This document shows positions 17,908 through 34,201 of a stretch of DNA of 41,163 nucleotides, one piece after another. Positions within the stretch are counted from its first letter, which is position 1. Each line of letters starts with the position of its first letter. The notes under the pieces were generated by a model, which made no database searches, was not told the origin of the DNA, and saw only the letters and a list, made by a program, of their open reading frames with translations. Position numbers and translations under genes: made by a program. The stretch lies in IMG/VR virus record IMGVR_UViG_3300045988_125200, positions 1-41,163 of that record; one strand, 5' to 3'. The DNA is from a virus.

Positions 17908-17916
17908 TATCCATGT

Positions 17917-18255: not shown

Positions 18256-18256
18256 A

Positions 18257-18815: not shown

Positions 18816-18817
18816 AT

Positions 18818-19661: not shown

Positions 19662-21518
19662 TTATTTGAATGGCAGTTCTACATCATCCGCCTGCCTAAA
19701 GCCGTCTTCGTCGATATCTGCATCCAGTTTAAGCCAGACGCAGCGGTTGTTCTTGCCGGCAATCTTCTTCTGTCTGGTCGGATTACCAAGCGAATCAGAC
19801 ATGATCAGCTTGTTTCTGGCTGCCCATGACAGGAAAGAAGCCTTGGAAAATCCACCGTTTCTGCACAGCTCGTCAAATGCCCGGTTGTAAAAGATGGCAT
19901 ATCCGTCTTCAAGAACGCCCCATTTTTCTATATTGCCGTCCGGTTCAAAACGGACATGATTCATCGCTACTTTATCTTGAATATATTCATAACAGCGCAC
20001 GTTGTCTGAAACAATCTTCCGGTCTGTAAGCAGCTTCTCAGCCTCTTCCAGGGTGATATTACAATTGTCCTTAAAGATATACTCTGTTGCGATTCTGTCC
20101 GCTGTAAGGACGATGGAAAGCGACAGCGCCTGTTTTTCCATCTTGTCATTAGACTGCAGTTCCTGCTTGAACACTTCCTGCACAGCACGGATTTTCTCGA
20201 TGCCCATCTTTTTGATGATCGCAATAAAGGCTTTGCCGGCATAACCATAGTTTTTCTTTACAATATCGGCCGTTTTGCCGGGATCCTGAAATACTTTTTC
20301 ACCACATTCCACTTCTATAATCCTGTTGATTGCTCCTCCCTGTTCTACATAAGCAGACAACGGACGTTCGCCATTGCAAATGATCACATTGCGCCACCGG
20401 TTTTCCCTGTTGATGCCTAGATCCTTGTTGGAACGGCTCTTGCCCTTTCCGGAACAAAGATCATAAACAACACCTTCAAAGTTATCCCGAATCCTGGCCG
20501 ATGTCTTACTGGTATCATCTAAAAGCATCGGCAGATTGTTCAGCATATCCGCTTTTGCTTCCAAAGCAACGTCCGTACTCTTAAAATCGCCTATGTACTG
20601 TGATTCATCGGGATTTGCCCAGACAGATGCAGCAACCATCAGAGACACCGTCTTACCGCCTTCCGTTTCTCCCCACAGGTCTACAAAAAATGGGAGCCCG
20701 CCTAGCGGCTGCAGCAGTACACTTGCAAAGGATGCAGCCAGCAAAAACTTCACTTCCATTCGGCCAGACCGGCGCAATGACCGGATATGTTCCAGCCACA
20801 CTGCTGCGGATCCGCGTTCTGTAATGGCATCAAATATATTCTTAAACCGGAAATCCCCGTCAAAAACAATGTCTGTGTCATAAGGCAGAAACTCCTGACC
20901 GTGCCATCCAAGCTTGCTGCTGGAGTACTGCATGGCGATGTAATCATCGTTTAGGTTTTCCACATCTGACAGATATTTGACCAGAAGCTTTGCATTCTCG
21001 CTTGTAACGGAAATGCCTCTTCCTGATAGAGCAACAATCTTATTTGCCGATGTGATCATTGTTTTTGGTACTGTAATCTCATCCCATCGGCCGTTCCGAA
21101 AATAAGCCAGTTTGATCTGTTCTTCGCCGGTCTCAAGGTTCTTCATCCGCTCCACAGGAAGTATAGGATGATAGCAGGCCACCTGATCAATAGAACTATT
21201 GGACTGGCTGTATATGCCGCTCAATTTCGCGATCCATGCACCGCATGCCAGTTCATCATAAGGACCTTGGAAATTCGTATAATTATCCAATGTACAGATC
21301 TGGTTCTCTTGCATTTTCTTCAGCTTCATTTCTTTGTCCGCTTTCTCGTAAGCTGACAGCAGATCTTTAAAATCCTGCGCCACCTTAAGTACTTTTGCCC
21401 GCTCTTTCAATGCAATCTTTAAGCGTGTCCTTTTTACCTGATCCTGCATATCCAGCAGCTCCGTGAAAACAGATTCGTCCAATATGTCGTCAACAGTCAT
21501 TTCATCTAAAGGTTTCAT
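19662..21518 (-). CDS. Replicative helicase/ATPase (SF3, DUF927/VirE-like) with an N-terminal primase-associated region
   Basis: Walker A (WGETEGGKT) and Walker B-like (PMLLDD) motifs are present. The ATG at 21518 is preferred. Confidence 0.75.
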   Translation of the reverse strand: MKPLDEMTVDDILDESVFTELLDMQDQVKRTRLKIALKERAKVLKVAQDFKDLLSAYEKADKEMKLKKMQENQICTLDNYTNFQGPYDELACGAWIAKLSGIYSQSNSSIDQVACYHPILPVERMKNLETGEEQIKLAYFRNGRWDEITVPKTMITSANKIVALSGRGISVTSENAKLLVKYLSDVENLNDDYIAMQYSSSKLGWHGQEFLPYDTDIVFDGDFRFKNIFDAITERGSAAVWLEHIRSLRRSGRMEVKFLLAASFASVLLQPLGGLPFFVDLWGETEGGKTVSLMVAASVWANPDESQYIGDFKSTDVALEAKADMLNNLPMLLDDTSKTSARIRDNFEGVVYDLCSGKGKSRSNKDLGINRENRWRNVIICNGERPLSAYVEQGGAINRIIEVECGEKVFQDPGKTADIVKKNYGYAGKAFIAIIKKMGIEKIRAVQEVFKQELQSNDKMEKQALSLSIVLTADRIATEYIFKDNCNITLEEAEKLLTDRKIVSDNVRCYEYIQDKVAMNHVRFEPDGNIEKWGVLEDGYAIFYNRAFDELCRNGGFSKASFLSWAARNKLIMSDSLGNPTRQKKIAGKNNRCVWLKLDADIDEDGFRQADDVELPFK

Positions 21519-22023
21519 CTCCTGCCACACCTCCCTTCTTGTGGATTTGCTCGTATGTTATCAATTCTTTTTGCAGGGCATTGTAGCTTTCACACCACTC
21601 ATCACTGAGAGGCTGCGAACGGCTTATAGATGTCCTGTAGATATCAATCAGGTTAATGTTGTGCTGAACCGTTTCCTGCCTCTTTTGCTCCCGAATCTGG
21701 CGTTCTTCCTTAGCTTTCTGGGACTTATAAACGGCCAGCCTTGCTTGGGCCTTAGAGCGTTTTTTTTTGCACTCATATTCACCGCCGAGAAAAAGAAAGG
21801 CCTCTTTAAAGCTCATGCCGTCCATTTTGCGGATGAAATCAAACACGTCACCTGCTGCGCCACACCCGAAACAGTAAAAGCTGTCTTTATAAATCTTCAA
21901 AGAAGCATTTCTGTCACCCTTATGGAACGGACACACGATAAAACCGGCCCTGTTAGGATAAAGCCCATATCTTTCAACCAGTTCCTCCATAAATACGGTT
22001 CTTTTTATTTCTTCAGATGTCAT
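21502..22023 (-). CDS. CHC2 zinc-finger protein (DnaG primase zinc-binding domain only)
   Basis: CPFHKGDRNASLKIY..FYCFGCGAAGDVFDF is the classic CHC2 motif. No TOPRIM region is visible in its 173 aa. Confidence 0.75.
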   Translation of the reverse strand: MTSEEIKRTVFMEELVERYGLYPNRAGFIVCPFHKGDRNASLKIYKDSFYCFGCGAAGDVFDFIRKMDGMSFKEAFLFLGGEYECKKKRSKAQARLAVYKSQKAKEERQIREQKRQETVQHNINLIDIYRTSISRSQPLSDEWCESYNALQKELITYEQIHKKGGVAGDETFR

Positions 22024-22519
22024 ATGTGCCGCCTAGAATCTGGATAATTCTTTTCCCCGTTTCTTCCTTGTCGCAGAACAAAAACTTGCACCCGTATTTC
22101 CGTTCTTGGGTCTGAAGGATCTTGCAAAGTGTCTCGCCTGTAGTAGCCTTTGTCTCGACTTCTTCCCAACGTCCTGTATCCGGATTCTTTCGGCGCTTCC
22201 AACGTCTCGGATTCTCCCAGAACATGACATCAGCCATACTCTTGATACCTTTACCGTGTTCACATAGAAAAATCAGCTGGATCTCATTCCGCTGTGCCAG
22301 AAGCATTTCCCTCCGGAATCTTTCATGATCAGAAGTTACGTTGCTGCACAACTCGGACAGATTCTGTTTTCGGTCAACAATTACGCGGGGATTGTCGTAA
22401 TTCATGTAATCCCCCACCAGTAACTTGCTGATAGGATGCTTGATGTCCTGCCGGTCAAATTCGGCCAGGATCTTTTTGATCGCCCGGGCCTTTTCCCGGC
22501 TGTCAATCTGTATGATCAT
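22013..22519 (-). CDS. ERCC4/XPF-type nuclease (putative structure-specific endonuclease)
   Basis: The pattern IDSRE..VGDY..VDRKQNLSEL.. matches ERCC4-domain catalytic residues. Confidence 0.65.
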   Translation of the reverse strand: MIIQIDSREKARAIKKILAEFDRQDIKHPISKLLVGDYMNYDNPRVIVDRKQNLSELCSNVTSDHERFRREMLLAQRNEIQLIFLCEHGKGIKSMADVMFWENPRRWKRRKNPDTGRWEEVETKATTGETLCKILQTQERKYGCKFLFCDKEETGKRIIQILGGTYDI

Positions 22520-22534
22520 GTTTCATGTCTCCTT

Positions 22535-22972
22535 TTAGCTAAATGGCAGCTCTTCATCGAGTTCGGTTGGAATATTCATCCAGCCATCTGCGGACTGTGC
22601 CTGATTCGGATTTGGCCGGCCCGCTGCTCCTTGAGTATTCTGCTGTCCGCTTTCGCTGCCTTTGCTTTCGGCAAAAGCTACCGTCTGGGCAATGACATCT
22701 GTCGTATAGACTTTTGCCCCGTCTTGATTTGTATAACTGCCTGTCTGGATAGAGCCAACCAGCTCCATCTTTTTGCCTTTCCAGAAATATTTTTCGATGA
22801 ATTCTGCAGTTTTTCTGAAGGCTTTACAATTAATAAAATCCGCTGTCGGTCCGTTGTCGCTTTTATACTGGCGGTCAACAGCGAGGGTAAACCTCGCTAT
22901 CGTATGGCCATTGTCTGTATACCGGACTTCCGGATCTCTTGTTAATCTTCCTGTCAGCTGTACACTATTCAC
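22535..22972 (-). CDS. ssb: Single-stranded DNA-binding protein
   Basis: The N-terminus (MNSVQLTGRLTRDPEVRYT) is an OB-fold signature. A Gly/Gln-rich linker follows, ending in the acidic tail DEELPFS. GTG start. Confidence 0.9.
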   Translation of the reverse strand: MNSVQLTGRLTRDPEVRYTDNGHTIARFTLAVDRQYKSDNGPTADFINCKAFRKTAEFIEKYFWKGKKMELVGSIQTGSYTNQDGAKVYTTDVIAQTVAFAESKGSESGQQNTQGAAGRPNPNQAQSADGWMNIPTELDEELPFS

Positions 22973-23693
22973 GCGGTGTCACGTCCTTTCTGTCCGGTGT
23001 TTTTTCAAATTTCTTCATCACAGCTTTATATTCAGTGATTGTCATTTCGCTTACTTTCTTTGCTTTTACGGCACGCATTCCGAGGATTGCTTCATCGCTT
23101 ACTCCGGTTCTGAACTGCTGCTCACGGATGGTCTGCAGCATAACCGGTGTGATTCTTTCCTCTGTGGAACCATCCTGGCTTACTGCAGGCTTCTGCTCAG
23201 GTGCTGGCTTTTGCGCCGGCTGCTGCTTCGGTGCAACTGTCTGCGTGACAATCTCTTCTGCAGGACTGTTGGCATCCGGATCCTGCATCTCTTCTGTTGG
23301 AATACAGAACACTTGAAAGCATGCATATTTATATGCTATAGACATGGCCTTGTTTATTCCCTTGTCCCCCATGTCCATGGCCTCGCCATAAATGATCGTT
23401 TCAATATGGCTGCCATCACTGGCATAGAAAGTAAATTTTACTTTCAGCATAACTTTTACGATGGTGGCGCCTTTACTGGTCTTTCCTACTTCCGTGCATT
23501 CTCGTTGCAGGATGAGCGGAACAATAAATACACCATTTTTTGCCAGTGCCGGATTCAGGGCATTAAAAACATCATCCACTGATCTGTATTTGAATCCCTG
23601 CTGCCGGTTAACCTTGTCTTTTCCGACGGCACCAACGTCGGCGATAACTTTTGGAATGGCCTCATAGATCAGGCCGCTTGATGAATTACTCAT
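22965..23693 (-). CDS. erf: ERF-family single-strand annealing recombinase
   Basis: KFRSVDDVFNALNPALAKNGV..GEAMDMGDKGINKAMSIAYKYA.. is typical of ERF proteins. The ATG at 23693 follows AGGAG. Confidence 0.8.
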   Translation of the reverse strand: MSNSSSGLIYEAIPKVIADVGAVGKDKVNRQQGFKYRSVDDVFNALNPALAKNGVFIVPLILQRECTEVGKTSKGATIVKVMLKVKFTFYASDGSHIETIIYGEAMDMGDKGINKAMSIAYKYACFQVFCIPTEEMQDPDANSPAEEIVTQTVAPKQQPAQKPAPEQKPAVSQDGSTEERITPVMLQTIREQQFRTGVSDEAILGMRAVKAKKVSEMTITEYKAVMKKFEKTPDRKDVTPRE

Positions 23694-24675
23694 TCTCGTC
23701 TCTCCTCTCGAAAAAGATACCAATACTGTTAAATGCTATTTCAACCTGTTCCAGTTCTTCCGGTGTGGCCACGACTTTGTAAAATACTGTCTGTGTATGC
23801 GGCTGTTCAAATGGCAGGTCATCTACTGCAAAACCTTCTGTATCAAATCCAGATTCTTCAGGTGCTTCCTGCTCTGGAATATTATGTACAGGTGTCGGCT
23901 GCTTTTCGGTAACCTTTTCCGCTGCCTTTCTACGCTCTTCTTCACGGATACGCTCTTCTGCAGCAATCCGTTCACGCTCTTCCTGACGGATTCTCTCAAG
24001 CTCCTGCCGACGATTCTGTTCTTCCCTAGCCCTTCGACGTTCTTCTTCACGCTTCAGGATCTCTTCTTTCTGGCGTTCATAAGCGGCGATTGCCATAGAT
24101 GCTTTTGACAGATCATGTGTCTTTTTATATTCCTCAAGCGCCTTCGGAACAGCTTCAGATGTATTGGCTTTAATAACTTCAATATCATTCCGGATACGGC
24201 TAACCTGTCCGGTCAAATCGGTTTTCCATGCTTTTGTGGAAGTTGAAGCGTTTTCCCAATGGCTGTCGTAAATCTGATCAAGAGAAACATACTCCAGCAG
24301 ATCAGATGCGATATCTCCAAAGAATTCTTCAATCTCTTTGCGTCGTGCTGCCTTTCTTTGTTCTTCCATTTCCTTGATCTGGGCATCGATCAGACTGATA
24401 GGTTCATCAATCAGCTGCAGAAGTTCTTTTGTTTTGGATTCAAACTCTTCGTAAGGTCCCATCCATTCTTTTTTTATTTCCTTACGGCGGTCATCCAGTG
24501 CCTTTCTGATTTTTCTCAGTGTTGCAAGTTCGCCTTTCGCCTGGGTCTTATATTCTTCGGAAAACTTCGCGTTTTTATATAATTCCATAGACTGCGCCAG
24601 TACTGCTTTTTGTTCCCCAAAATTTGTATCGATTTTGCCTGGTATGATATTGGCCAGGATTCTCAGTTCATTCAT
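23686..24675 (-). CDS. DUF1351-family protein (Erf-associated)
   Basis: 329 aa with a coiled-coil, Glu/Arg-rich centre. The N-terminal pattern and synteny with erf/ssb support the call. Confidence 0.6.
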   Translation of the reverse strand: MNELRILANIIPGKIDTNFGEQKAVLAQSMELYKNAKFSEEYKTQAKGELATLRKIRKALDDRRKEIKKEWMGPYEEFESKTKELLQLIDEPISLIDAQIKEMEEQRKAARRKEIEEFFGDIASDLLEYVSLDQIYDSHWENASTSTKAWKTDLTGQVSRIRNDIEVIKANTSEAVPKALEEYKKTHDLSKASMAIAAYERQKEEILKREEERRRAREEQNRRQELERIRQEERERIAAEERIREEERRKAAEKVTEKQPTPVHNIPEQEAPEESGFDTEGFAVDDLPFEQPHTQTVFYKVVATPEELEQVEIAFNSIGIFFERRDENE

Positions 24676-24944
24676 TATTTATCTCCCTTCTGACTAAGAC
24701 CGAGAAGCGCTCTCAGTGGCTTCGCGTCAATATAGCTGTCTTCTTCAAGTGCAATGATAACCGTAATATTGGCCAACGTCGCAAGTGCTCTGATTCCTTC
24801 GTTATGCACGCTGATTGGCACCTGGATGTAGTAATCCTCCTCTTTGACAGGACTGATTTTTGTGTTATAATCATCTTGAAGTATTTTTTCTTTTTTGGCT
24901 GACTGGCTGGCGGGCTGGTCGGCCTTTCTGTTATCAATAATCAT
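24675..24944 (-). CDS. Hypothetical protein
   Basis: 89-aa ORF in the operon. Confidence 0.5.
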   Translation of the reverse strand: MIIDNRKADQPASQSAKKEKILQDDYNTKISPVKEEDYYIQVPISVHNEGIRALATLANITVIIALEEDSYIDAKPLRALLGLSQKGDK

Positions 24945-25086
24945 CTTGTTCTAACCTCCTGTTTAATTCTGATAATTTTGCGGATGTTTCCCGCATTTTT
25001 GCCTGTAACTCTATGTATTGCTTTTGCATCTGGTTGTATTCAGATATCAGATCATAATACTCTTGCGGCTTTTCAATCTTCTTCAT
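24934..25086 (-). CDS. Hypothetical coiled-coil protein
   Basis: The ATG at 25086 (MKKIEKPQEYY..) is preferred over the longer form. Confidence 0.45.
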   Translation of the reverse strand: MKKIEKPQEYYDLISEYNQMQKQYIELQAKMRETSAKLSELNRRLEQDDY

Positions 25087-25363
25087 AGTATCTCTCGGCA
25101 CTGGCCATGATCCCGAAGAAACCACCAACCATAATAAAGAAACATACTACCAACAGCAATTGCCACCAGCGTTCAACCATATCCAGTCTCAAAGACAAAA
25201 AGATGCCTGCTGCCATGTAAACTATGCATGTAATCTCACGGGCTGTCAGTTTAACTGGATTCGTTGTTGACTTTCGTTCTTCCTCCACCTGCACCGGGTG
25301 ATACGGTTCTGTTTTCCTGGTGGCATTCATTCTAGCCACTGGCGGATAATTAAGACTGCTCAT
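25073..25363 (-). CDS. Small membrane protein
   Basis: Two hydrophobic segments are present (ITCIVYMAAGIFLSL and LLLVVCFFIMVGGFFGIMA). Confidence 0.55.
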   Translation of the reverse strand: MSSLNYPPVARMNATRKTEPYHPVQVEEERKSTTNPVKLTAREITCIVYMAAGIFLSLRLDMVERWWQLLLVVCFFIMVGGFFGIMASAERYYEED

Positions 25364-25374
25364 TTTGTACCTCC

Positions 25375-25623
25375 TTATAATGGCTGCGGCTTTCTGATAA
25401 AAGCCACTCTTATTTCAAGTGCATCAAGAATCGCATATAACTCTTCAATCGTAAACCTCCCTGGTTCCCCAAGTTTGGTTGTCAATGTCTTTGTTGAAAA
25501 CTGTGCCTTTACCGCTATCTGCTCAGGGCTTTTATGATAACGGACCATCTCTCCTTTTATCATGCTGCTGATGAAATCTTCCCGTTCCTTTTTCTTTGGA
25601 ACAGAAACTAATGATTTTGCCAT
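25375..25623 (-). CDS. Hypothetical, possible HTH protein
   Basis: The ATG at 25623 follows AAGGAGG. Confidence 0.5.
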   Translation of the reverse strand: MAKSLVSVPKKKEREDFISSMIKGEMVRYHKSPEQIAVKAQFSTKTLTTKLGEPGRFTIEELYAILDALEIRVAFIRKPQPL

Positions 25624-25636
25624 GCTCTCCGCCTCC

Positions 25637-25843
25637 TTAATAAAATGTACGTATTTGCATAACACACACATCGTAATTCGGATTTCTCCGCTGAATAACT
25701 TCTTTCAACTTCTCAGCCTTTTCTCTGGTAAACTTCAATGCCCGATGAATGGCATTATCAAACGACAGACCGCTATTCTCTTTGCCGACAAGAACATAAA
25801 TCTTATCCTTCTGGTAGATGGCTACTGTGAATTCTTCTTCCAT
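25637..25843 (-). CDS. Hypothetical protein
   Basis: 68-aa ORF with RBS GGAGGGG. Confidence 0.5.
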   Translation of the reverse strand: MEEEFTVAIYQKDKIYVLVGKENSGLSFDNAIHRALKFTREKAEKLKEVIQRRNPNYDVCVMQIRTFY

Positions 25844-25861
25844 GGTTATCCCCTCCTTCTG

Positions 25862-25890
25862 TTGATTTTCTTCTCTGAATCTCCTATACT
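25862..25890 (+). promoter_or_regulatory. Sigma-70-type promoter of the protease gene
   Basis: TTGATT (25862-25867), a 17-nt spacer, then TATACT (25885-25890). The RBS AAAAGGAG follows before the ATG at 25943. Confidence 0.6.
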
Positions 25891-25942
25891 TTGATTACAG
25901 GCACTGCCATGCCGAGTACTTACCAAAAAGGAGTTTAAACTT

Positions 25943-26725
25943 ATGATTAATTCACCCGCAGACAAGATGTTAGATTGTGCCACTTTAGTCCAATCACACA
26001 ACCAAAACACAATTTCTTCCGCAACAGGATTTTTCTTCACGTTTAACATTGATGGAAATGCTGTTCCTGTCCTTATAAGCAATAGGCACGTTCTTGAATT
26101 TTCTCAAGCCATACAAATCCATTTACGTGTTTCCAATTTTCAATCCCGTGATGAACAACTAAATAGTTATCACCGCGTTGAAGTGAATATGAATATTAAA
26201 GAATCTGTCTTTCTTCACCCAAATCCAGAGATTGATTTGGCACTTGTACCTCTGGCCGGATTGATGCGACAATGTGAATCTCAAAACGAATATATAGCCA
26301 ATTTCTTCATACCAGAATCCTCGCTGTTGGCAGAAGAAGAATTTCGAAGTTTAACTGCCATAGAAAATCTGATTATGATTGGCTGCCCTGAAGGACATTA
26401 TGACCACTTTAATCACCTTCCTCTTATTCGTCGTGGAATAACTGCCTCTCACCCTACTTATAATTATAATGGGAAACCCGTTTTTCTATCTGATATCGCC
26501 TGTTTCCCTGGTTCTAGCGGTTCACCGATTTTTCTTTACAATCCATTTGGTTACGCTGATTATCAAACTCAGACGTATAGATTTGGGGAGAGCCGTATAA
26601 AACTAATCGGAATACAAAGCGCTGGTTATTTAAAACCAGATACCCGACAGTTCATTAATTTAGCTATCGCTCAAAAAGCCTATTTGCTAAAGGACTTTAA
26701 GTCTCTGTTGCAAAATTATCTTTAG
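25943..26725 (+). CDS. Trypsin-like (S1/Trypsin_2) serine protease, cytoplasmic
   Basis: The catalytic triad context is present: ISNRHV (His), EIDLALV (Asp) and FPGSSGSPIF (Ser). There is no signal peptide. It is the only plus-strand gene inside the early lytic operon. Confidence 0.8.
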   Translation: MINSPADKMLDCATLVQSHNQNTISSATGFFFTFNIDGNAVPVLISNRHVLEFSQAIQIHLRVSNFQSRDEQLNSYHRVEVNMNIKESVFLHPNPEIDLALVPLAGLMRQCESQNEYIANFFIPESSLLAEEEFRSLTAIENLIMIGCPEGHYDHFNHLPLIRRGITASHPTYNYNGKPVFLSDIACFPGSSGSPIFLYNPFGYADYQTQTYRFGESRIKLIGIQSAGYLKPDTRQFINLAIAQKAYLLKDFKSLLQNYL

Positions 26726-26981
26726 TTTTCCCCATTGAAACATGTTCGCGAGAAGCTTTGTGATTAATAGTCTGCTCTGTAATTTCTCTTTTGATGTTGA
26801 AATCAATTTTTAAGTCAAAGTATTGAAGCCGATCAATTGTCTGACGCAGACGTTCGGCTTCTTCCTTTGCCTGTTCGATAAGCTTTTCAAACTCAGTCAA
26901 ATTTGTTACTGAAATGTTTAATCGACCAGTCGGAACCGATGATTCACTTTGCTTTTGGTTTGCAATATAAAATCCATCCAT
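26697..26981 (-). CDS. Hypothetical coiled-coil protein
   Basis: 94-aa ORF. Its 3' end overlaps the protease 3' end convergently by 29 nt. Confidence 0.5.
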   Translation of the reverse strand: MDGFYIANQKQSESSVPTGRLNISVTNLTEFEKLIEQAKEEAERLRQTIDRLQYFDLKIDFNIKREITEQTINHKASREHVSMGKTKDNFATET

Positions 26982-27015
26982 CCTCTATCCCTCCTCTCTG
27001 TCTGGTTCGAATGAA

Positions 27016-27336
27016 TCAACTGTTCAAATTTAATTTTCGTTCAGAGCTCAGCATTTCACTTACTGGAATTCTTAAAACTTCCGACAAAGCAATAAGTATT
27101 GAAGCTTTCATATCTTGCTACCGTTCGCCTTTTTCTATAGAACAGTAATAGTTTGTTGAAATTCCGATACGCTTAGCTACATCTTCCTGTATCATTCCCA
27201 GTGATAACCGGGCGTTTTTTAAGTATTCTCTGAGGGAATTTTCTTCCGGTCCGCCTTCTATGCCCATACCTCTTTTGCTTTTCACTTCGGTCATGTTGAT
27301 TATTTTTATGCCGTTAGGATAATCGAGTCTTTGCAT
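27016..27336 (-). pseudogene. XRE-family HTH regulator interrupted by one in-frame TAG (27118..27120); either a pseudogene or a readthrough gene
   Basis: ..LSLGMIQEDVAKRIGISTNYYCSIEKGER*QDMKASILIALSEVLRIPVSEMLSSE.. The HTH_3 domain continues in the same frame after the TAG and ends at a TGA at 27016. Confidence 0.7.
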
Positions 27337-27358
27337 TAGCTACTCCTCCTCTCCTTTG

Positions 27359-27373
27359 TTGAATTTAATTCAC
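27359..27373. promoter_or_regulatory. Operator copy TTGAATTTAATTCAC (distal)
   Basis: Exact copy of the 27601 site, with a TGAAT-N3-ATTCA palindrome. It overlaps the cro-like stop and lies 23 nt upstream of the 27336 start. Confidence 0.55.
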
Positions 27374-27580
27374 TTCAGAATCAAAAAAAATAGCATCCCG
27401 CTCTCTGGTTGACAGTCTCAACACTTTTGATAAACTAGAAATTTCAGAAGCTTTAAATTCCGTGTTTCCTTTAAGCTTATTATATAAGCTTTCCCGCAAA
27501 ATTCCTGTCTTTTCCGCCAAAGAAACCATGGTCATACCCGAATCAGAAATTTTCTTTTCCAGCAATTTGGTATTAATCAC
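27365..27580 (-). CDS. Cro-like HTH regulator (first lytic gene)
   Basis: 71 aa, with a GTG start after GGAGG. The HTH is MTMVSLAEKTGILRESLYNKLKG. It is divergent from the CI-like gene. Confidence 0.65.
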   Translation of the reverse strand: MINTKLLEKKISDSGMTMVSLAEKTGILRESLYNKLKGNTEFKASEISSLSKVLRLSTRERDAIFFDSEVN

Positions 27581-27600
27581 ATTTTCACCTCCAAACCATG

Positions 27601-27615
27601 TTGAATTTAATTCAC
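27601..27615. promoter_or_regulatory. Operator copy TTGAATTTAATTCAC
   Basis: Palindromic site between the lytic -10 element and the cro-like RBS. Confidence 0.55.
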
Positions 27616-27621
27616 ACTAAC

Positions 27622-27650
27622 AATATATCACTAAGGTGAATTTGTGTCAA
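27622..27650 (-). promoter_or_regulatory. Early lytic promoter
   Basis: On the minus strand: TTGACA, a 17-nt spacer, then TATATT, upstream of the cro-like gene. Confidence 0.6.
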
Positions 27651-27651
27651 C
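27636..27651. promoter_or_regulatory. Operator-like variant GTGAATTTGTGTCAAC
   Basis: Related half-sites that overlap the -35 of the lytic promoter. Confidence 0.45.
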
Positions 27652-27668
27652 ACTTTTTAACATTTTTG

Positions 27669-27683
27669 TTGAATTTTTTTCAC
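27669..27683. promoter_or_regulatory. Operator-like variant TTGAATTTTTTTCAC
   Basis: Related site that overlaps the -35 of the repressor promoter. Confidence 0.45.
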
Positions 27684-27697
27684 ACATGTGCTATAGT
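27669..27697 (+). promoter_or_regulatory. Repressor (lysogenic) promoter
   Basis: TTGAAT, a 17-nt spacer, then TATAGT preceded by TGc (extended -10), upstream of the gene starting at 27721. Confidence 0.6.
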
Positions 27698-27720
27698 GTT
27701 CTCAGAAGGGATATGTCAAC

Positions 27721-28044
27721 ATGCTAGATTTATATAAGAATATTAAAAACTTAAGAGAAGCAAAAGGATTGTCGCAAGATGATTTAGCGAAATTAACCGG
27801 ATATACAAGTCGCTCTTCTATTGCAAAAATAGAAAAGGGCGAAGTGGATTTGCAGCAAAGCAAAATACTCGCATTCGCAAAAGCATTAGGCACAACTCCA
27901 GGGAAATTAATGGGCCTTACAGAAAATGATTATGTTGAAAAAGTAGATACTTTGGCAGCCCACTTCAGCGGTGACGAATACACAGAATCCGAACTGGATG
28001 AGATCCGCCAGTTCGCAGCATTTGTAAAGAACAAAAGAAAATAG
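27721..28044 (+). CDS. CI-like / ImmR-like XRE-family repressor
   Basis: The HTH_3 motif is LREAKGLSQDDLAKLTGYTSRSSIAKIEKGE. The gene heads the plus-strand lysogeny operon and is followed by ImmA. Confidence 0.85.
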   Translation: MLDLYKNIKNLREAKGLSQDDLAKLTGYTSRSSIAKIEKGEVDLQQSKILAFAKALGTTPGKLMGLTENDYVEKVDTLAAHFSGDEYTESELDEIRQFAAFVKNKRK

Positions 28045-28072
28045 ATACACATACCAGAGTGGGAGGTGTCTT

Positions 28073-28540
28073 ATGAACACATATGAAAAACTCCAAGATA
28101 AGGCCTGCAAGGACGGTATTGATGTGATAGATTATCCGTTCAATAGCAATAGAATCGATGGGTTATATTGCGACGGCACGATTGCTATCAGAAAAGATAT
28201 TGAAACATCGGCCGAAAAGGCATGTGTCTTGGCCGAAGAACTTGGTCACTACTATACCAGTCATGGAAACATTATCAATATGAATGATGTAAAAAGCAGA
28301 AAACAGGAACGTCAGGCAAGGGAATGGGGCTTCAATAACCGGATCGGGCTTCTCGGTATCATCCGTGCTTTCGAACACGGCTGCCGTAACCGATACGAAA
28401 CGGCTGAATACCTGGAAGTAACTGAAGAATACTTGGAAGAAGCACTGAAATGCTACAGAAGCAAATATGGAGTATATAAGGTCGTTGATAATTATGCAAT
28501 TACTTTTATTCCGAATTTAGCCGTTACAAGGATATTATAG
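28073..28540 (+). CDS. ImmA/IrrE-family metalloprotease (anti-repressor protease)
   Basis: An HExxH-type motif (LAEELGHYYTSHG) is present. Size and pairing with the XRE repressor support the call. Confidence 0.8.
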   Translation: MNTYEKLQDKACKDGIDVIDYPFNSNRIDGLYCDGTIAIRKDIETSAEKACVLAEELGHYYTSHGNIINMNDVKSRKQERQAREWGFNNRIGLLGIIRAFEHGCRNRYETAEYLEVTEEYLEEALKCYRSKYGVYKVVDNYAITFIPNLAVTRIL

Positions 28541-28567
28541 AGTTAAAGATGTAAGGGGAATTTTGTT

Positions 28568-29881
28568 ATGGGATTTTCTGATATATTTAAGGGTAAACAA
28601 TATAAAAGTGAACTTGAAACATTGCAACAAAAATATGATGAGTTACAGGCGCTACTTACGCCTGAAATGAGAAATGCACTGGCTCTTCAAGAGAAGATAC
28701 GAGAACTGAAGCAAAGCATTCAATCAGAGCAAAAAGAAATAGAATCTCTTGATAAAGCTATTGCGGATAAGCAAAACCATATCAGCTTATTGGACAACAC
28801 AATCTCAAACAAGAAATCTGAAATCGTGTCTCTTGATGATGAAATTTTGGTTCAGGAATTTGGACTTTATGAACCTTATTTTGATTTTGCAAATGCATTG
28901 GACTACAAAGAAGAGCTTGCAAAAATCCGCTCAAAACAAAAGGAATTGATAAAAAATAAAACAGCCGTTTCCGGAGCTACAGAATGGACGGTAAATGGGA
29001 GCGCGTCAAAAGGCAAAAAAATGGTATCTGACACACAGAAGCTTTTACTACGAGCCTTTAATACTGAATGTGATGAGCTTGTTGCTAAAGTAAAGTATAC
29101 CAATTTCGATGCTTCTCTTAATAAAATTTATAAGTCTGCTGAAGCTATATCAAAACTTGGAACAATTATGCATATATCTATCAACTCCAATTATCTCGAT
29201 TTAAAAATAAAAGAGTTACGTTTAGCATTTGAGTATCAGCAGAAAAAGCAGGAAGAAAAGGAAGCTCAAAAAGCTGCACGTGCTGAAATGCGAGAAGCCG
29301 CTCGATTGCAGAAAGAAATTGAAGCGCAGCGTAAAAAGATTGAAAAGGAACAGACACATTACCAGACTGCATATGATCACCTTCTTCATCAAATCGAGCA
29401 AAATCCAGGCAATGCCGATTTGTTAAAGAAGAAAGATGAATTGGAGAATCAATTAAATGACATCGATAAGGCTATGAAGGATATCGACTACAGAGAAGCT
29501 AATCAACGTGCCGGTTACGTCTATGTTATATCCAATATCGGTGCTTTTGGACCGAATGTTTACAAAATCGGAATGACCAGAAGATTAGACCCTCAGGACC
29601 GTGTTGATGAATTAGGTGACGCTTCTGTCCCATTCAATTTTGATGTTCATGCCATGATTTTCTCTGACGATGCACCGGCTTTGGAAGCTGCGCTCCATAG
29701 AGCATTTGAAGATAGAAAATTGAATATGGTTAATACTAGACGTGAATTTTTCAATGTTACTCTGGACGAAATCAAAGAAGTAGTCAAGAAAAGCTTTGAT
29801 AAAACTGTAGAATTTATTGACGTTCCAGATGCAGAACAATATCGTATCAGTCAGAAAATGCGTGAACATCAAAGTAAATAG
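28568..29881 (+). CDS. DUF4041 protein with a C-terminal T5orf172/MUG113 (GIY-YIG-like) domain
   Basis: The N-terminus is coiled-coil. The C-terminus reads GYVYVISN..VYKIGMTRRLDPQDRVDELGDASVPFNFDVHAMIFSDDAPALEAALHRAF..REFF. Confidence 0.75.
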   Translation: MGFSDIFKGKQYKSELETLQQKYDELQALLTPEMRNALALQEKIRELKQSIQSEQKEIESLDKAIADKQNHISLLDNTISNKKSEIVSLDDEILVQEFGLYEPYFDFANALDYKEELAKIRSKQKELIKNKTAVSGATEWTVNGSASKGKKMVSDTQKLLLRAFNTECDELVAKVKYTNFDASLNKIYKSAEAISKLGTIMHISINSNYLDLKIKELRLAFEYQQKKQEEKEAQKAARAEMREAARLQKEIEAQRKKIEKEQTHYQTAYDHLLHQIEQNPGNADLLKKKDELENQLNDIDKAMKDIDYREANQRAGYVYVISNIGAFGPNVYKIGMTRRLDPQDRVDELGDASVPFNFDVHAMIFSDDAPALEAALHRAFEDRKLNMVNTRREFFNVTLDEIKEVVKKSFDKTVEFIDVPDAEQYRISQKMREHQSK

Positions 29882-29953
29882 CCCTCGGAACTACATACTT
29901 TGATTAAATCGCTCTAGCGTTTCAATAATAAAATTCAAAAGGGGAAAAGTATT

Positions 29954-30508
29954 ATGAAAAAGAAAATCACAACTGCCATGCTTATTGCTGCAATGTCTAT
30001 GTCTATCATGGCGTGTGGCGGCGGCAAAACAACTGAAACACAGGCACCAACAACAGAAGCTCCTGCAGTTACCGAAACAGTCACAACAACTGAGGCTCCT
30101 ATCATAACTGAAACGCCGGATACCGAATCTGTTGACAATGGTATCATTGATTTTAAAGCTTCTGATTGTACAATTAAATATTTGAAACACGAATTCGCCG
30201 TAGATTGGGATGGTGACCCATGTTTGTTATATTATTTTACGTTTACCAATACCAGCGACACAAACGAATCCGCTGATTCAACAGTAATACTTCAATGCTT
30301 TCAGAACGGCATCGAATGCAACATGACCCAATTAGAAGAAGATAATGCAGAGATATCCCGATTCTACAAAGATATTCAACCAGGAACTAGTGTTGATGTA
30401 TGTGCTGTGTTTAAATTAGAAGATAACAGTGAAATTACCATGGAAGCCTCTGATTTTATTACCTTCGGAACCCCTAAAGGTAATATTCAAAAAATTACTG
30501 TAGAATAA
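29954..30508 (+). CDS. Lipoprotein (DUF5067-like), prophage-encoded surface protein
   Basis: A signal peptide with a lipobox (SMSIMAC|GGG) is followed by a Thr/Glu/Pro-rich linker and a beta-rich domain. Confidence 0.75.
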   Translation: MKKKITTAMLIAAMSMSIMACGGGKTTETQAPTTEAPAVTETVTTTEAPIITETPDTESVDNGIIDFKASDCTIKYLKHEFAVDWDGDPCLLYYFTFTNTSDTNESADSTVILQCFQNGIECNMTQLEEDNAEISRFYKDIQPGTSVDVCAVFKLEDNSEITMEASDFITFGTPKGNIQKITVE

Positions 30509-30586
30509 TTTTACATAAAATAGCAAAACCGCCCGGTGTTACCAGCACCGAACGGTTTCACATAGATTTCTTGTACAAGTCGAAGC

Positions 30587-30626
30587 TTGTGATCAATACA
30601 TCCTAGACAAGTGTATTGTATCACAA
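30587..30626. repeat. Imperfect inverted repeat upstream of the integrase gene
   Basis: TTGTGATCAATACA (30587-30600) and TGTATTGTATCACAA (30612-30626) are separated by 11 nt. Confidence 0.5.
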
Positions 30627-30685
30627 AAATCCGGCACCGTACAGGTGTATTTTTTATACCCATTTTTAAGATTGGAGTGATACAT

Positions 30686-31696
30686 ATGGCAACACCTAAA
30701 AAACTTCCTTCAGGCAACTGGCGTGTTCGTGTCTATGACTATACTGATGAATCAAATGTCAGGCACTACCGCTCTTTCACTGCCGCAACGAAAAAAGAAT
30801 GTTCTTACATGGCAGCGGAATTTTCACAGAACAAATCCCGCATTGCTGCAGGTGATTTGACTATTGCCGAGGCTATTGATGAATACATACGTGTCAAATC
30901 AGAAGTTTTATCTCGCAGTACGATCAGGGGCTATCAGACACAGCGCAAAAACTACTATAAAAGTATCGAAACCATACGGATCCGGACATTGACTACGCCT
31001 GTCGTACAGGAATGGATCAATCGCCTGGCAGGAAGACTTTCACCGAAGACTGTATCCAACGTGAACGGATTGTTGATGGCTGCACTTGCCATGTTTGCTC
31101 CGGAACTCAGGATCAACGTAACTCTGCCAAGAAAAATACCGGCACAGCTTTATACACCATCTGATTCAGATATAAAAGCTTTGTTGGCTGCCATTGATGA
31201 TGACGAGCTTTACTTGGCTGTCTTACTGGCCGCCTTCGGTCCATTGCGCCGTGGCGAGCTGTGCGCCTTAGAAAGCAGTGATGTACATGATAACTATATA
31301 ACTGTCAATAAATGCATGGTAAAGGATTCTGACGGCATCTGGCACGTTCAGCCGCGTCCCAAAACAGATGCTTCCTTCCGTACAGTAGACTTCCCGGAAT
31401 TTGTCATAGAACACATTCCCCAAAAAGAAGGCCGGATTTTTGACTGCAATCCGGATAACATAACCAACCGGTTTCACCGTACCATCCGAAGGAACAATCT
31501 TTCACCATTCCGCTTTCATGATCTCAGACATTATGCCGCCAGTATCATGCATGCTATCGGTGTTCCAGATCAGTATATCATGCAGCGCGGCGGATGGGCT
31601 ACAGACGGCATCATGAAATCCGTCTACAGAGATGCTATCGATGAGCAGACTGTCAAAATGAATCGGCTTATCAATAAACACTTCTCGTCTCTGTGA
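30686..31696 (+). CDS. int: Tyrosine integrase
   Basis: The catalytic residues are in context: RRGE, HDLRH, GGW and VYRD (Tyr). The ATG at 30686 follows TGGAGTG. Confidence 0.9.
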   Translation: MATPKKLPSGNWRVRVYDYTDESNVRHYRSFTAATKKECSYMAAEFSQNKSRIAAGDLTIAEAIDEYIRVKSEVLSRSTIRGYQTQRKNYYKSIETIRIRTLTTPVVQEWINRLAGRLSPKTVSNVNGLLMAALAMFAPELRINVTLPRKIPAQLYTPSDSDIKALLAAIDDDELYLAVLLAAFGPLRRGELCALESSDVHDNYITVNKCMVKDSDGIWHVQPRPKTDASFRTVDFPEFVIEHIPQKEGRIFDCNPDNITNRFHRTIRRNNLSPFRFHDLRHYAASIMHAIGVPDQYIMQRGGWATDGIMKSVYRDAIDEQTVKMNRLINKHFSSL

Positions 31697-32024: not shown

Positions 32025-32786
32025 TTATTTCTTCACCGTCTTAGCTCTAGTCAGGCATGCCGGTCCGAATCTCTCGTCCTGTTTCAGCTTTTCTTCTGCC
32101 TGGAATGCAACCACGGCTTTTTCAGTATTCGCTCCAAAGCTGCCATCGATGCTGTCTTTATATACGCCGTACCACTTCAGAAACATCTGCAAATGTTTCA
32201 CCTGGGTTCCCGTATCTTTAAGACCAAGATATCCCTTCGCTGGCAATGTTGGAAATGCGCCTGAATAAGTGGCCACGTTGCTCTTTTTCTGAATCACCCA
32301 GATAACGTTTGTGTCATACCTGAGAAGCTCCGGATCATAGTACCCAGTTCTTTTCTTGGATCCGGAATCTCTGACATACAATTTGCCATTCTTCAGGTCC
32401 GTGATAGCAAGATAATGACCGCCAGATGTCCAGAGATTGTCCTTTCCACCGTTTCTCTTTCCAACAACGAGAAAAATCGCCCACCAGTCGCCCTTAAGGC
32501 TTTTCATCTGTTCCATTGCTTTTTTCCAGGATGAGCCGCCAGTATGTTCCGGTGTGTAATACGTGCTCTTGAAGCCATAATGTTCCAGAGCAACTGTGAT
32601 GCCTGCACGGGTTGTTCCGGAAGAACCGAAAGCCCCTCTTCCAGATAACCATGCTGCCACCTGTTTTGGTGTGGTATAGGAAATGTTGCATGCGATAGAC
32701 GCAACGGAACACGGACCACAACCCGCCAGAGGCATCGATGTGCCGTTTACATAACCCTCTTTTGTCTGATCAAATGTTACACTCAT
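32025..32786 (-). CDS. Endolysin: N-terminal papain-like cysteine peptidase plus a C-terminal PG_binding_1 domain
   Basis: The Cys (AGCGPCSV) and His (GGHYLAI) contexts are present. The C-terminus is VKHLQMFLKWYGVYKDSIDGSFGANTEKAVVAFQ. The ATG at 32786 follows AAAGGAG. Confidence 0.8.
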   Translation of the reverse strand: MSVTFDQTKEGYVNGTSMPLAGCGPCSVASIACNISYTTPKQVAAWLSGRGAFGSSGTTRAGITVALEHYGFKSTYYTPEHTGGSSWKKAMEQMKSLKGDWWAIFLVVGKRNGGKDNLWTSGGHYLAITDLKNGKLYVRDSGSKKRTGYYDPELLRYDTNVIWVIQKKSNVATYSGAFPTLPAKGYLGLKDTGTQVKHLQMFLKWYGVYKDSIDGSFGANTEKAVVAFQAEEKLKQDERFGPACLTRAKTVKK

Positions 32787-32803
32787 AGAAATTCTCCTTT
32801 CAT

Positions 32804-32825
32804 AAAAAGGCACCCGAAGGTGCCC
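32804..32825 (-). terminator. Intrinsic terminator-like hairpin between the holin and endolysin genes
   Basis: The minus strand reads GGCACC-TTCG-GGTGCC followed by TTTTTAT. It lies 6 nt before the endolysin RBS. Confidence 0.6.
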
Positions 32826-32881
32826 ATACTTTATTCAATTTAGTTTAATCAACTCGTTTTCCAGTTTCTTCAACTGTTTCT

Positions 32882-33115: not shown

Positions 33116-33116
33116 A

Positions 33117-33443: not shown

Positions 33444-33458
33444 ATGTAGCCTCCCTTC

Positions 33459-34189: not shown

Positions 34190-34201
34190 TTTGATTCTCC
34201 T

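What the first reader, a model, noticed from the sequence alone, without database searches (positions are those of the whole stretch)
25862..26725. Cytoplasmic trypsin-like serine protease embedded antisense in the early lytic operon, with its own promoter
This is the only plus-strand gene between 27580 and 1, so it interrupts the minus-strand early operon. It has a near-consensus promoter (TTGATT-17-TATACT), a strong RBS, and a His/Asp/Ser triad (NRHV, DLAL, GSSGSP). It has no signal peptide.

Lytic transcripts must cross about 850 nt of its antisense strand to reach the next early gene, and its 3' end overlaps gene 26697..26981 convergently. This layout is typical of lysogen-expressed morons such as superinfection exclusion or abortive-infection genes. 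Lytic transcription could silence the gene by convergent interference.

I cannot place a stand-alone S1 protease of this kind in any named defence system. It is my best candidate for an undescribed single-gene function, either phage defence or a protease switch acting on phage or host regulators.
Basis: partly seen in the sequence, partly recalled or inferred. Interest (0 to 1): 0.72.

Follow-up and report, generated by a model that had tools for sequence, protein, structure and literature searches.

The report
Stand-alone serine protease prophage cargo gene
A temperate gut phage carries a small cytoplasmic trypsin-type protease gene with its own promoter, pointing against the phage's early lytic genes; it belongs to PDC-S45, a widespread family already listed as an untested anti-phage defence candidate, so it is a good test case but not a new kind of gene.

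Summary
ORF 25943..26725 (+) encodes a 260-aa soluble S1/PA-clan protease with triad H49/D98/S192. It is the only supported plus-strand gene in the minus-strand block 1..27580 of a complete circular temperate phage genome (54-bp terminal repeat).

The promoter TTGATT-17-TATACT matches only 9 of 12 consensus positions and is unremarkable alone. However, a -35/-10 pair at the same distance from the ATG is conserved in 7 of 9 related loci.

It matches PADLOC PDC-S45 (E=5e-71), one of 145 untested "guilt-by-embedding" defence candidates. The family is large (2138 clusters at 50% identity with E<=1e-30) and patchily spread over bacteria, archaea, prophages and plasmids. Members are almost always stand-alone, with no conserved partner gene.

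In seven Lachnospiraceae-type prophage lineages (40-97% identity) the gene keeps the same place. It lies on the repressor/integrase strand, embedded antisense a few genes after cro, while immunity, replication and cargo modules around it change.

Best reading: a lysogen-expressed single-gene defence or exclusion protease. The function is untested, and trigger and substrate are unknown. I rate it a new member of a known candidate kind, of moderate interest.

The parts
25862..25890 (+). Sigma-70-type promoter of the protease cassette: -35 TTGATT, 17-nt spacer, -10 TATACT
   Evidence: Matches 9/12. A -35/-10 pair at the same distance from the ATG is conserved in 7 of 9 related loci while the spacer diverges.
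25895..25918 (+). Conserved element TTACAGGC-N8-GCCGAGTA just after the -10, around the likely transcript start. It is an imperfect palindrome or 5'-UTR hairpin of unknown role.
   Evidence: Conserved in five distinct loci (window/L166, L081, L161, L171, L168). It occurs once in the window. The fold is not unusually stable (z = -0.11) and shows no two-sided covariation.
25927..25933 (+). Ribosome-binding site AAAGGAG, 9 nt before the ATG
   Evidence: Read directly from the sequence. GGAG is kept in the relatives.
25943..26725 (+). 260-aa cytoplasmic S1/PA-clan serine protease of the PDC-S45 family (phrog_7688); triad H49, D98, S192
   Evidence: AF2 model pLDDT 94.2. Chymotrypsin-fold matches to DegP/DegS/FAM111A. 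No hydrophobic segment. The ORF is intact in 10 prophage copies.
26697..26981 (-). 94-aa early gene (phrog_3882, unknown function) whose 3' end overlaps the protease 3' end convergently by 29 nt (26697-26725)
   Evidence: The identical protein is linked to the protease in 8 of 8 places shown. The genes at this position in more distant relatives are not homologous.
25637..25843 (-). 68-aa early gene directly beyond the protease cassette. Leftward early transcripts must cross the protease gene antisense to reach it.
   Evidence: No family hit. No promoter-like site on the minus strand between 26697 and 25843.
27622..27650 (-). Strong leftward early promoter TTGACA-17-TATATT (11/12, TG-extended). 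It drives the cro-like operon that converges on the protease gene.
   Evidence: Cro-like HTH genes lie at 27365..27580 and 27118..27336.
27669..28044 (+). Rightward promoter (TTGAAT-17-TATAGT, 27669-27697) and cI-like repressor gene (27721..28044). This starts the lysogeny module, on the same strand as the protease.
   Evidence: ImmA metalloprotease (28073..28540), a PD-Lambda-1 homologue (28568..29881) and an integrase (30611..31696) follow.

Best explanation
The gene is accessory cargo (a moron) of a temperate Lachnospiraceae-type phage. It encodes a soluble, stand-alone chymotrypsin-fold serine protease of the PADLOC candidate family PDC-S45.

Shown:
- It is an intact, conserved, catalytically complete protease with no sensor domain and no conserved partner gene.
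- It has its own conserved promoter and RBS.
- It lies on the repressor/integrase strand inside the leftward early operon, in many mosaic prophages.

Inferred:
- It is transcribed in the lysogen from its own promoter.
- It acts as a one-protein defence against superinfecting phages.
- It does so either by cutting a protein of the incoming phage directly, or, like Lit, by staying harmless until a phage product makes a host or phage target cleavable (abortive infection).
- When the resident prophage is induced, transcription from the strong early promoter at 27650 runs head-on through the gene and lowers its expression, so the phage's own lytic cycle is spared.
For: Protease identity:
- Pfam Trypsin_2 above its cutoff.
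- H/D/S triad conserved in 46 homologues.
- AF2 pLDDT 94.
- PA-clan fold hits with probability 1.0.

Defence candidacy:
- PDC-S45 at E=5.3e-71. PDCs were defined from genes embedded in BREX, DISARM or type I R-M systems.
- Immediate neighbours in 46 genome loci include type I R-M subunits, HamA, DrmD, DpdE, PbeA, a type IIG enzyme and PDC-S06/S11.
- A 13-kb Acinetobacter plasmid carries it alongside an R-M system.

Single-gene nature:
- The best neighbour cluster occurs in only 14 of 80 viral loci, and neighbours are heterogeneous.
- 2138 clusters at 50% identity with E<=1e-30; the 150 best-scoring are almost all 260-300 aa.

Patchy, mobile distribution:
- 417 hits among 185,579 species genomes, spanning many bacterial phyla, CPR and archaea.
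- 137 IMG/VR contigs and 15 plasmids.
- In prophages, neighbours are repressors, integrases, endolysins and terminases, which mark typical moron slots.

Lysogenic layout:
- Same strand as cI and int, antisense within the cro-side operon, in the window and in L161, L162, L166, L168, L170, L171, L173 and L174-L181. Repressor type, replication module and cargo differ between them.
- Conserved promoter.
- The ORF is intact, with pN/pS mostly 0.2-0.5.
- The same phage carries a PD-Lambda-1 homologue at E=8e-159.
Against: - No member of PDC-S45 has been tested. Only 4 of 8 other PDC/HEC candidates protected E. coli in one study.
- I could not compute a defence-island enrichment with a control. Only a minority of the 46 genome loci have clear defence neighbours, and only 2 of 150 prophage neighbours hit defence ATPases.
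- There are no expression data. The promoter is only a 9/12 match.
- There is no evidence on substrate, trigger or toxicity.
- The strictly conserved position next to the genetic switch could equally reflect a role in the phage's own regulation.
- In the wider family the gene is usually co-oriented with its neighbours (28 of 80 viral loci are ++P++). The antisense layout is therefore specific to this clade.
Confidence: 0.5

Rival explanations
1. The protease serves the phage's own lysis-lysogeny circuit. It sits beside the cI/cro switch and cleaves a phage or host regulator (for example a Cro/CII-like early protein or a host factor), stabilising lysogeny or timing induction.
For: The position is strictly conserved, 1-4 small genes after cro, in seven prophage lineages whose other modules differ. 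No plus-strand terminator lies between the protease stop (26725) and cI (27721). A transcript from the protease promoter could therefore run antisense through the cro-like genes and into cI, as lambda PRE does (from memory). A conserved element lies at the transcript start.
Against: Most family members lie outside prophage switches: in chromosomal loci next to R-M, Hachiman or DISARM genes, on plasmids, in archaea and CPR, and in other prophage slots next to lysis or terminase genes. The switch types next to it differ (S24 LexA-like repressors versus short HTH plus ImmA), so a common regulatory substrate is unlikely. The window already has an ImmA-type anti-repressor protease.
Confidence: 0.15
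2. It is a counter-defence or host-takeover protease that the phage uses to degrade host immune or other proteins.
For: It is phage-borne, cytoplasmic, and near the early region where anti-defence genes often sit.
Against: It is transcribed against the early operon and with the lysogeny module. It is essentially absent from 50,697 sequenced phage records; the only hit is a truncated relic in SfII. It is common in cellular chromosomes and plasmids next to defence genes, and was picked up as embedded inside defence systems.
Confidence: 0.08
3. It is a toxic protease kept in check by an antisense RNA or overlapping transcript, acting as an addiction or stability module for the mobile element rather than as an anti-phage system.
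For: The convergent 3' overlap with the neighbouring early gene recurs although those genes are not homologous: 29 nt in the window and L166, 33 nt in L162, 59 nt in L168, 6 nt in L171, 36 nt in L173. The family also occurs on small plasmids.
Against: There is no conserved protein partner anywhere in the family. L161 and L170 have no overlap. In most of the family the gene is co-oriented with its neighbours. No structured RNA was detected.
Confidence: 0.07
4. It is an ordinary accessory or housekeeping peptidase with no role in phage-host conflict, carried passively.
For: Public annotations are only generic ('S1 family peptidase', 'serine protease'). Many neighbours in genomes are metabolic or regulatory genes. 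No NCBIfam model exists.
Against: The distribution is patchy and MGE-linked rather than vertical. The gene is cytoplasmic and lacks PDZ or other quality-control domains. Its own promoter and its placement are conserved in mosaic prophages, and the ORF is kept intact.
Confidence: 0.15

Closest known systems
PADLOC phage defence candidate PDC-S45 (model PDLC05022); also phrog_7688
   Same: Full-length HMM match: E=5.3e-71, residues 3-243 on profile positions 14-252 of 293. It is a single gene with a Trypsin_2 core. Other members are also prophage-borne, for example in Sinorhizobium phiLM21-like prophages (PMC12429752).
   Different: PDC-S45 is only a computational candidate with no demonstrated activity. 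The window's clade lacks an insertion of about 20 aa near the C-terminus that most members carry (alignment A1). Its antisense placement beside the phage switch is clade-specific.
HtrA/DegP/DegQ/DegS protease domain (MEROPS S1C)
   Same: Best structural matches: Foldseek probability 1.0, TM about 0.52-0.55. Same H-D-S chymotrypsin fold and a GxSGxP serine motif.
   Different: Only 15-17% identity, and no significant sequence match to any PDB chain (best E=0.086). It has no PDZ domain and no signal peptide or membrane anchor. It is MGE-borne rather than a conserved envelope quality-control gene.
Lit protease of the E. coli e14 prophage (abortive infection; from memory)
   Same: It offers a working analogy: a prophage-encoded, single-gene, cytoplasmic protease expressed in the lysogen that blocks a superinfecting phage by cleaving a target only during infection.
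   Different: Lit is a zinc metalloprotease that cleaves EF-Tu when the T4 Gol peptide is present. It has a different catalytic class and fold and is not homologous. The PADLOC scan at E<=1 returned only PDC-S45. Trigger and substrate here are unknown.
Trypsin-like proteases inside multi-gene immune systems: trypsin-MBL / HamMAB nuclease-protease pairs, and CARD-trypsin proteases of gasdermin systems
   Same: The same broad Trypsin_2-type domain is used in anti-phage immunity (10.1101/2025.09.03.673762; review PMC13434031).
   Different: Those proteases are fused to, or encoded next to, sensors (HamA, NLR/CARD) and a pro-effector that they cleave (MBL nuclease, gasdermin). Here there is no fusion and no conserved neighbour. 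No PADLOC model other than PDC-S45 matches.
FAM111A serine protease domain (human antiviral restriction factor)
   Same: A cytoplasmic/nuclear chymotrypsin-fold protease, among the top structural hits (8s9k, TM 0.52-0.55).
   Different: Identity is 12-13% and the fit is no better than to DegP, so this is fold-level similarity only. No functional link can be drawn.

Membership tests
S1 / PA-clan serine peptidase (Pfam Trypsin_2, PF13365) | Profile match above the curated threshold | tested here: met
   33.0 bits against a cutoff of 27.6, E=1.2e-7, residues 28-197.
S1 / PA-clan serine peptidase (Pfam Trypsin_2, PF13365) | Catalytic triad in the order His-Asp-Ser, with a GxSGxP serine motif | tested here: met
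   H49 is in >=90% of sequences; D98 and G190-S-S192-G-S-P195 are invariant in 46 sequences. The HP motif (H92-P93) precedes the Asp.
S1 / PA-clan serine peptidase (Pfam Trypsin_2, PF13365) | Double beta-barrel chymotrypsin fold | tested here: met
   AF2 pLDDT 94.2, pTM 0.92, mostly beta. 197 PDB hits at E<=1e-3, all PA-clan proteases among those listed. BFVD hits are viral 3C-like or trypsin-like proteases.
S1 / PA-clan serine peptidase (Pfam Trypsin_2, PF13365) | Proteolytic activity | not testable with these tools
   Needs a biochemical assay comparing wild type with S192A.
PADLOC PDC-S45 | Match to the PDC-S45 HMM | tested here: met
   PDLC05022, E=5.3e-71, 236.9 bits; the only PADLOC model matched at E<=1.
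PADLOC PDC-S45 | Single-gene system with no obligatory partner | tested here: met
   No neighbour cluster occurs in more than 14 of 80 viral loci. Neighbours are heterogeneous in 46 genome and 38 viral loci. Flanking small genes in the clade are not homologous. Family members are almost all 260-300 aa.
PADLOC PDC-S45 | Association with, or embedding in, known defence systems (the basis on which PDCs were defined) | tested here: inconclusive
   Some genome loci have type I R-M, HamA, DrmD, DpdE or type IIG neighbours, and a plasmid copy sits with an R-M system. I could not compute enrichment against a control. In the window it is not embedded in a system; PD-Lambda-1 lies 1.8 kb away in the lysogeny module.
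PADLOC PDC-S45 | Experimentally shown anti-phage activity | not testable with these tools
   The authors describe all 145 PDCs as untested. PDC-S45 was not among the eight candidates later assayed.
HtrA/DegP family (S1C) | C-terminal PDZ domain(s) and export to the envelope | tested here: not met
   No PDZ hit. No signal peptide or TM segment. The protein ends 60 residues after the catalytic Ser.
Trypsin-MBL / nuclease-protease pair modules | Adjacent MBL-fold or gated pro-nuclease partner, and fusion of the protease to a sensor (HamA, Ago, Avs) | tested here: not met
   Window neighbours are small proteins of 68-98 aa without family hits. No sensor fusion is present. No MBL family appears among the 25 most frequent Pfam families of neighbours; only that top list was visible.
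Prophage moron / lysogenic-conversion cassette | Own promoter, orientation independent of the surrounding operon, presence or absence independent of flanking modules | tested here: met
   Conserved -35/-10. Opposite strand to both flanks, same strand as cI and int. The same cassette occurs in prophages with different repressors, replication modules and cargo.
Prophage moron / lysogenic-conversion cassette | Expression in the lysogen | not testable with these tools
   No transcriptome data are available here.

The most novel reading that the evidence does not exclude
A bare chymotrypsin-fold protease of about 260 aa, with no sensor domain, no partner and no pro-effector, is a complete anti-phage immune system. 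Substrate recognition itself would be the sensing step: it cuts a conserved phage protein, or a host protein only when a phage factor presents it. In this prophage clade it would be wired so that the resident phage's own early transcription collides with it and switches it off. That would make PDC-S45 the first validated stand-alone S1-protease defence, spread across bacteria, archaea, plasmids and prophages.
Probability: 0.4. Interest if true: 0.72.

Novelty: new member of a known kind. Interest (0 to 1): 0.48.

Why it matters
Every trypsin-like protease with a worked-out role in bacterial immunity that I found acts inside a multi-gene system, where a sensor switches it on and it cleaves a neighbouring pro-effector. 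PDC-S45 has neither a sensor nor a neighbouring effector. If it defends, the protease itself must decide what to cut, which would be a simpler and different logic.

The family is large and very widely spread, so one validated member would annotate thousands of genes.

This prophage lineage is a convenient entry point:
- It is abundant in human-gut metagenomes; the identical neighbouring 94-aa protein is indexed in 642 blocks of the collection.
- The cassette is compact and carries its own promoter.
- The conserved antisense placement gives a concrete, testable model of how a prophage might avoid being harmed by its own defence gene.

If the gene proves to act on the phage switch instead, that would be a new type of regulator for temperate Firmicute phages.

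Tried and rejected
- **Conserved partner gene.** All-against-all clustering of neighbours in 80 viral loci, Pfam/PADLOC/PHROG scans of about 300 neighbours, and BLAST among the small flanking genes of the clade found none.
- **Informative domain fusions.** N-terminal extensions in longer homologues have no Pfam domain. The single fusion to DUF4917/SIR2-like in L116 has no full-length relative among the 120 best homologues listed, which are all stand-alone DUF4917. I treat it as one adjacency or an assembly artefact.
- **Close solved or viral structures.** Only generic PA-clan matches at TM about 0.5.
- **Named family in NCBIfam.** None.
- **Literature for a characterised stand-alone trypsin-like defence gene or any PDC-S45 test.** Seven searches found nothing.
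- **5'-UTR hairpin as a structured RNA.** Not thermodynamically unusual and no compensatory changes.
- **Compositional island.** The protease is 38.1% GC against a gene mean of 42.7%, but the whole immunity region is equally AT-rich, so this is not diagnostic.
- **Relatives of the 94-aa neighbour in IMG/VR, to find the same slot with different cargo.** No hits.
- **Similarity of the window to cultured phages.** Only short terminase-level matches.
- **Head-maturation protease.** Rejected. The family is found mostly outside phage structural modules and in cellular chromosomes and plasmids. Here the gene lies in the early region on the opposite strand.
Full report
**1. The observation**

The window is a complete, circularly assembled phage genome. 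Its first 54 bases repeat at its end, and a tape-measure ORF of at least 960 aa crosses the junction.

Genes on 1..27580 and 32025..41104 run on the minus strand. A plus-strand lysogeny module occupies 27721..31696:
- cI-like HTH repressor
- ImmA-type metalloprotease
- 437-aa PD-Lambda-1 homologue
- lipoprotein
- tyrosine integrase

Within the minus block, ORF 25943..26725 (+) is the only plus-strand ORF with any support:
- It is 260 aa, and nothing comparable lies opposite it.
- It has hundreds of homologues.
- The other long plus ORFs in the block have no PHROG match, whereas the overlapping minus ORFs do (Erf, SSB, nuclease and others).

Other details check out.

The promoter TTGATT-17-TATACT exists at 25862-25890 but matches only 9 of 12 positions. 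Sites of that quality are common in this AT-rich region: 12 found against 7.3 +/- 2.9 expected. What makes it credible is conservation. In 7 of 9 related loci, a >=9/12 pair with a 17-nt spacer ends 47-55 nt before the ATG, while the spacer and surrounding sequence diverge.

**2. What the protein is**

Pfam places it in Trypsin_2 above threshold. In an alignment of 46 homologues (31-97% identity), H49, D98 and the GSSGSP serine motif are conserved, together with the classical HP motif before the Asp.

AlphaFold2 gives a confident model (pLDDT 94.2, pTM 0.92). Its best PDB neighbours are the protease domains of DegP, DegQ and DegS and the FAM111A protease domain. The fit is only TM about 0.5 with 12-17% identity. 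No PDB chain matches by sequence, and BFVD offers only generic viral chymotrypsin-like proteases.

The protein has no PDZ domain, no signal peptide and no other domain. It is a divergent, soluble, minimal PA-clan protease.

**3. The family**

The decisive result is the PADLOC scan. The protein matches PDC-S45 over its full length at E=5.3e-71 and matches no other defence model. It also belongs to phrog_7688, of unknown function.

PDCs are 145 'phage defence candidates' that Payne and colleagues derived from genes embedded inside BREX, DISARM and type I R-M loci. They added them to PADLOC explicitly as untested (10.1101/2024.01.29.577857). The only paper in the library that names PDC-S45 records it in a Sinorhizobium prophage (PMC12429752). 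A later study assayed eight other candidates, of which four protected, but not this one (PMC12881386).

A profile search of 1.84 billion representative proteins finds 2138 clusters at 50% identity with E<=1e-30. The 150 best-scoring are almost all 260-300 aa. The few longer proteins among them have extensions without recognisable domains. One fusion to a SIR2-like DUF4917 domain (L116) has no full-length relative among the 120 best homologues listed.

The family is patchily distributed:
- 417 of 185,579 species genomes carry the exact motif, across many bacterial phyla, CPR and Thermoplasmata archaea.
- 137 IMG/VR contigs carry it.
- 15 plasmids carry it, including a 13-kb Acinetobacter plasmid where it accompanies an R-M system.
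- Among 50,697 sequenced phage records, only Shigella phage SfII has a relative: a 206-aa CDS aligning only to the C-terminal part of the family, next to IS911.

No partner gene is conserved. Immediate neighbours in genomes include type I R-M subunits, HamA, DrmD, DpdE, PbeA and other PDCs in a minority of loci. In prophages, neighbours are mainly repressors, integrases, endolysins and terminases, which mark the usual cargo slots.

**4. The local architecture is conserved in this clade**

I examined the genomic setting of relatives at 97%, 57%, 57%, 47%, 42%, 41% and 40% identity (L166, L161, L171, L173, L168, L162, L170), plus eight further close copies (L174-L181).

In all of them the protease gene lies on the strand of the repressor and integrase, one to four small genes beyond the cro-like gene. 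Opposite-strand early genes lie on its cro side in every locus and beyond its 5' end wherever the contig extends that far; in L170 a 121-aa gene on the protease's strand lies directly upstream, and L173's contig ends there.

Around this fixed cassette everything else changes:
- Repressors are LexA-like S24 proteins or short HTH proteins with ImmA.
- Replication and recombination modules are Erf/SSB, RecT/YqaJ, D5-type primase, PriCT/AAA_25 or Rep.
- Cargo between repressor and integrase is PD-Lambda-1-like SNIPE/T5orf172, ThsB-TIR plus SLATT, SIR2, Abi_2 or a lipoprotein.

The small genes flanking the protease are not homologous across the clade. A convergent 3' overlap nevertheless recurs in most loci.

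The ORF is intact in all ten close copies, with pN/pS mostly 0.2-0.5 on few substitutions.

A 24-nt element (TTACAGGC-N8-GCCGAGTA, 25895-25918) directly after the -10 is conserved in five distinct loci and unique in the window. As an RNA hairpin it is unremarkable, and it shows no compensatory changes. Its role is open.

Outside this clade the gene is usually co-oriented with its neighbours, so the antisense layout is a property of the clade and not of the family.

**5. How it most likely works**

Shown: a catalytically complete, soluble, partner-less protease; an independent, conserved transcription unit on the lysogeny strand; a mobile, patchy distribution that includes defence loci; and a host phage that carries another recognised defence gene.

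Inferred: the gene is expressed in the lysogen and protects it from other phages. It would do so either by cutting an incoming phage protein, or, like the e14 Lit protease (from memory), by cleaving a target only when a phage product is present.

The strong leftward promoter at 27650-27622 (11/12 match with TG) must send transcripts through about 850 nt of the protease antisense strand to reach 25637..25843. No minus-strand promoter-like site lies in between. Head-on interference during induction is therefore plausible but untested.

I put the defence reading at about 0.5. The main rival, at about 0.15, is a role in the phage's own switch. It is favoured by the fixed position beside cro/cI and by the absence of a plus-strand terminator before cI, which allows a lambda-PRE-like read-through. 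It is disfavoured by the family's many non-prophage contexts and by the diversity of adjacent switch types. Counter-defence, an antisense-controlled addiction toxin and a conflict-neutral peptidase are less likely, for the reasons given under rivals.

**6. Comparison with what is known, and novelty**

By the HMM and single-gene criteria it is a member of PDC-S45. The defining biological claim of that group, anti-phage activity, has not been tested for any member.

It is not an HtrA-type protease (no PDZ domain, no export). It is not a trypsin-MBL or CARD-protease module (no partner, no fusion).

Every trypsin-like immune protease with a known mechanism that I found works inside a multi-gene system, so a validated PDC-S45 would be mechanistically new.

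What this analysis adds is the conserved cassette (promoter, leader element, ORF) and its fixed antisense placement in a widespread gut prophage lineage.

**7. Verdict**

- Observation: confirmed.
- Interpretation: partly supported.
- Novelty: new member of a known (candidate) kind.
- Interest: 0.48.
- Most novel reading not excluded: a sensor-less S1 protease as a complete immune system, silenced by the prophage's own lytic transcription. Probability about 0.4; interest 0.72 if true.

Noticed in passing
window 28568..29881 (+): A 437-aa protein between the ImmA-like protease and the integrase is a strong PD-Lambda-1 homologue (PADLOC E=8e-159; phrog_1847 E=1.6e-154). PD-Lambda-1 is a named single-gene defence family. 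The phage therefore carries at least one recognised defence gene in its lysogeny module.
   Followed up: partly
window 29954..30508 (+): A 184-aa protein with a lipoprotein signal (MKKKITTAMLIAAMSMSIMAC...; weak NCBIfam lipoprotein hits; the equivalent 184-aa gene in relative L174 is DUF5067) sits next to the integrase. It may be a superinfection-exclusion-type moron.
   Followed up: no
L174-L181 (relatives of the window), region between repressor and integrase: Prophages sharing the identical 94-aa/protease block carry very different cargo in the cI-int slot: SNIPE/T5orf172 (PD-Lambda-1-like), ThsB_TIR plus SLATT, a 534-aa SIR2_2 protein, Abi_2, DUF5067. This looks like a defence-cargo hot spot. 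Several copies are integrated next to a SpoU methylase gene.
   Followed up: partly
window 25895..25918 (+): Conserved 24-nt element TTACAGGC-N8-GCCGAGTA immediately after the -10 of the protease promoter. It is present in five distinct loci and unique in the window. It is not an unusually stable hairpin and shows no compensatory changes. It could be an operator or a leader element.
   Followed up: partly
window 1..54 and 41110..41163: A 54-bp direct terminal repeat shows a circular assembly of a complete genome of about 41.1 kb. A tape-measure ORF of at least 960 aa spans the junction, and ORF 87..1028 (+) lies on the strand opposite it.
   Followed up: yes
window 26725..27721 (+): No terminator-like site on the plus strand between the protease stop and the cI start. 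A transcript from the protease promoter could run antisense through both cro-like genes and into cI, a layout reminiscent of lambda PRE.
   Followed up: no
window 26622..26639 (-): A weak terminator-like hairpin with a T-rich tail on the minus strand, 58 nt after the stop of the 94-aa early gene and inside the protease gene. It could attenuate early transcripts before they cross the cassette. The prediction is no better than chance (3 found against 1.7 expected).
   Followed up: no
L116 9962..11893 (Nitrospirae MAG): A single 643-aa ORF joins a PDC-S45-type protease to a DUF4917/SIR2-like domain (E=1e-83). No other full-length fusion appeared among the 120 best homologues listed. It is either a rare fusion or two adjacent genes merged by an assembly error.
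   Followed up: yes
L165 2833..3453 (Shigella phage SfII, SfII_57): The only relative among sequenced phage records is a 206-aa CDS that aligns only to the C-terminal part of the family (residues 143-227 of the window protein, 144-265 of P0020). It lies beside IS911, between the lysis cassette and the HNH/terminase region, and is probably a truncated remnant.
   Followed up: partly
alignment A1, columns about 327-347 (after window residue about 227): The window's clade (P0001-P0008, P0011, P0014, P0026) lacks an insertion of about 20 residues (consensus like GEIKVxxVPT...) that most PDC-S45 members carry before the last strand and C-terminal helix. It is a short-form subfamily.
   Followed up: no
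window 27721..28540 (+): The cI-like repressor matches the PADLOC CapH model (E=1.6e-12) and is followed by an ImmA/M78 metalloprotease. It is the same HTH plus metalloprotease pairing that regulates some CBASS operons (CapH/CapP); here it is the phage immunity switch.
   Followed up: no
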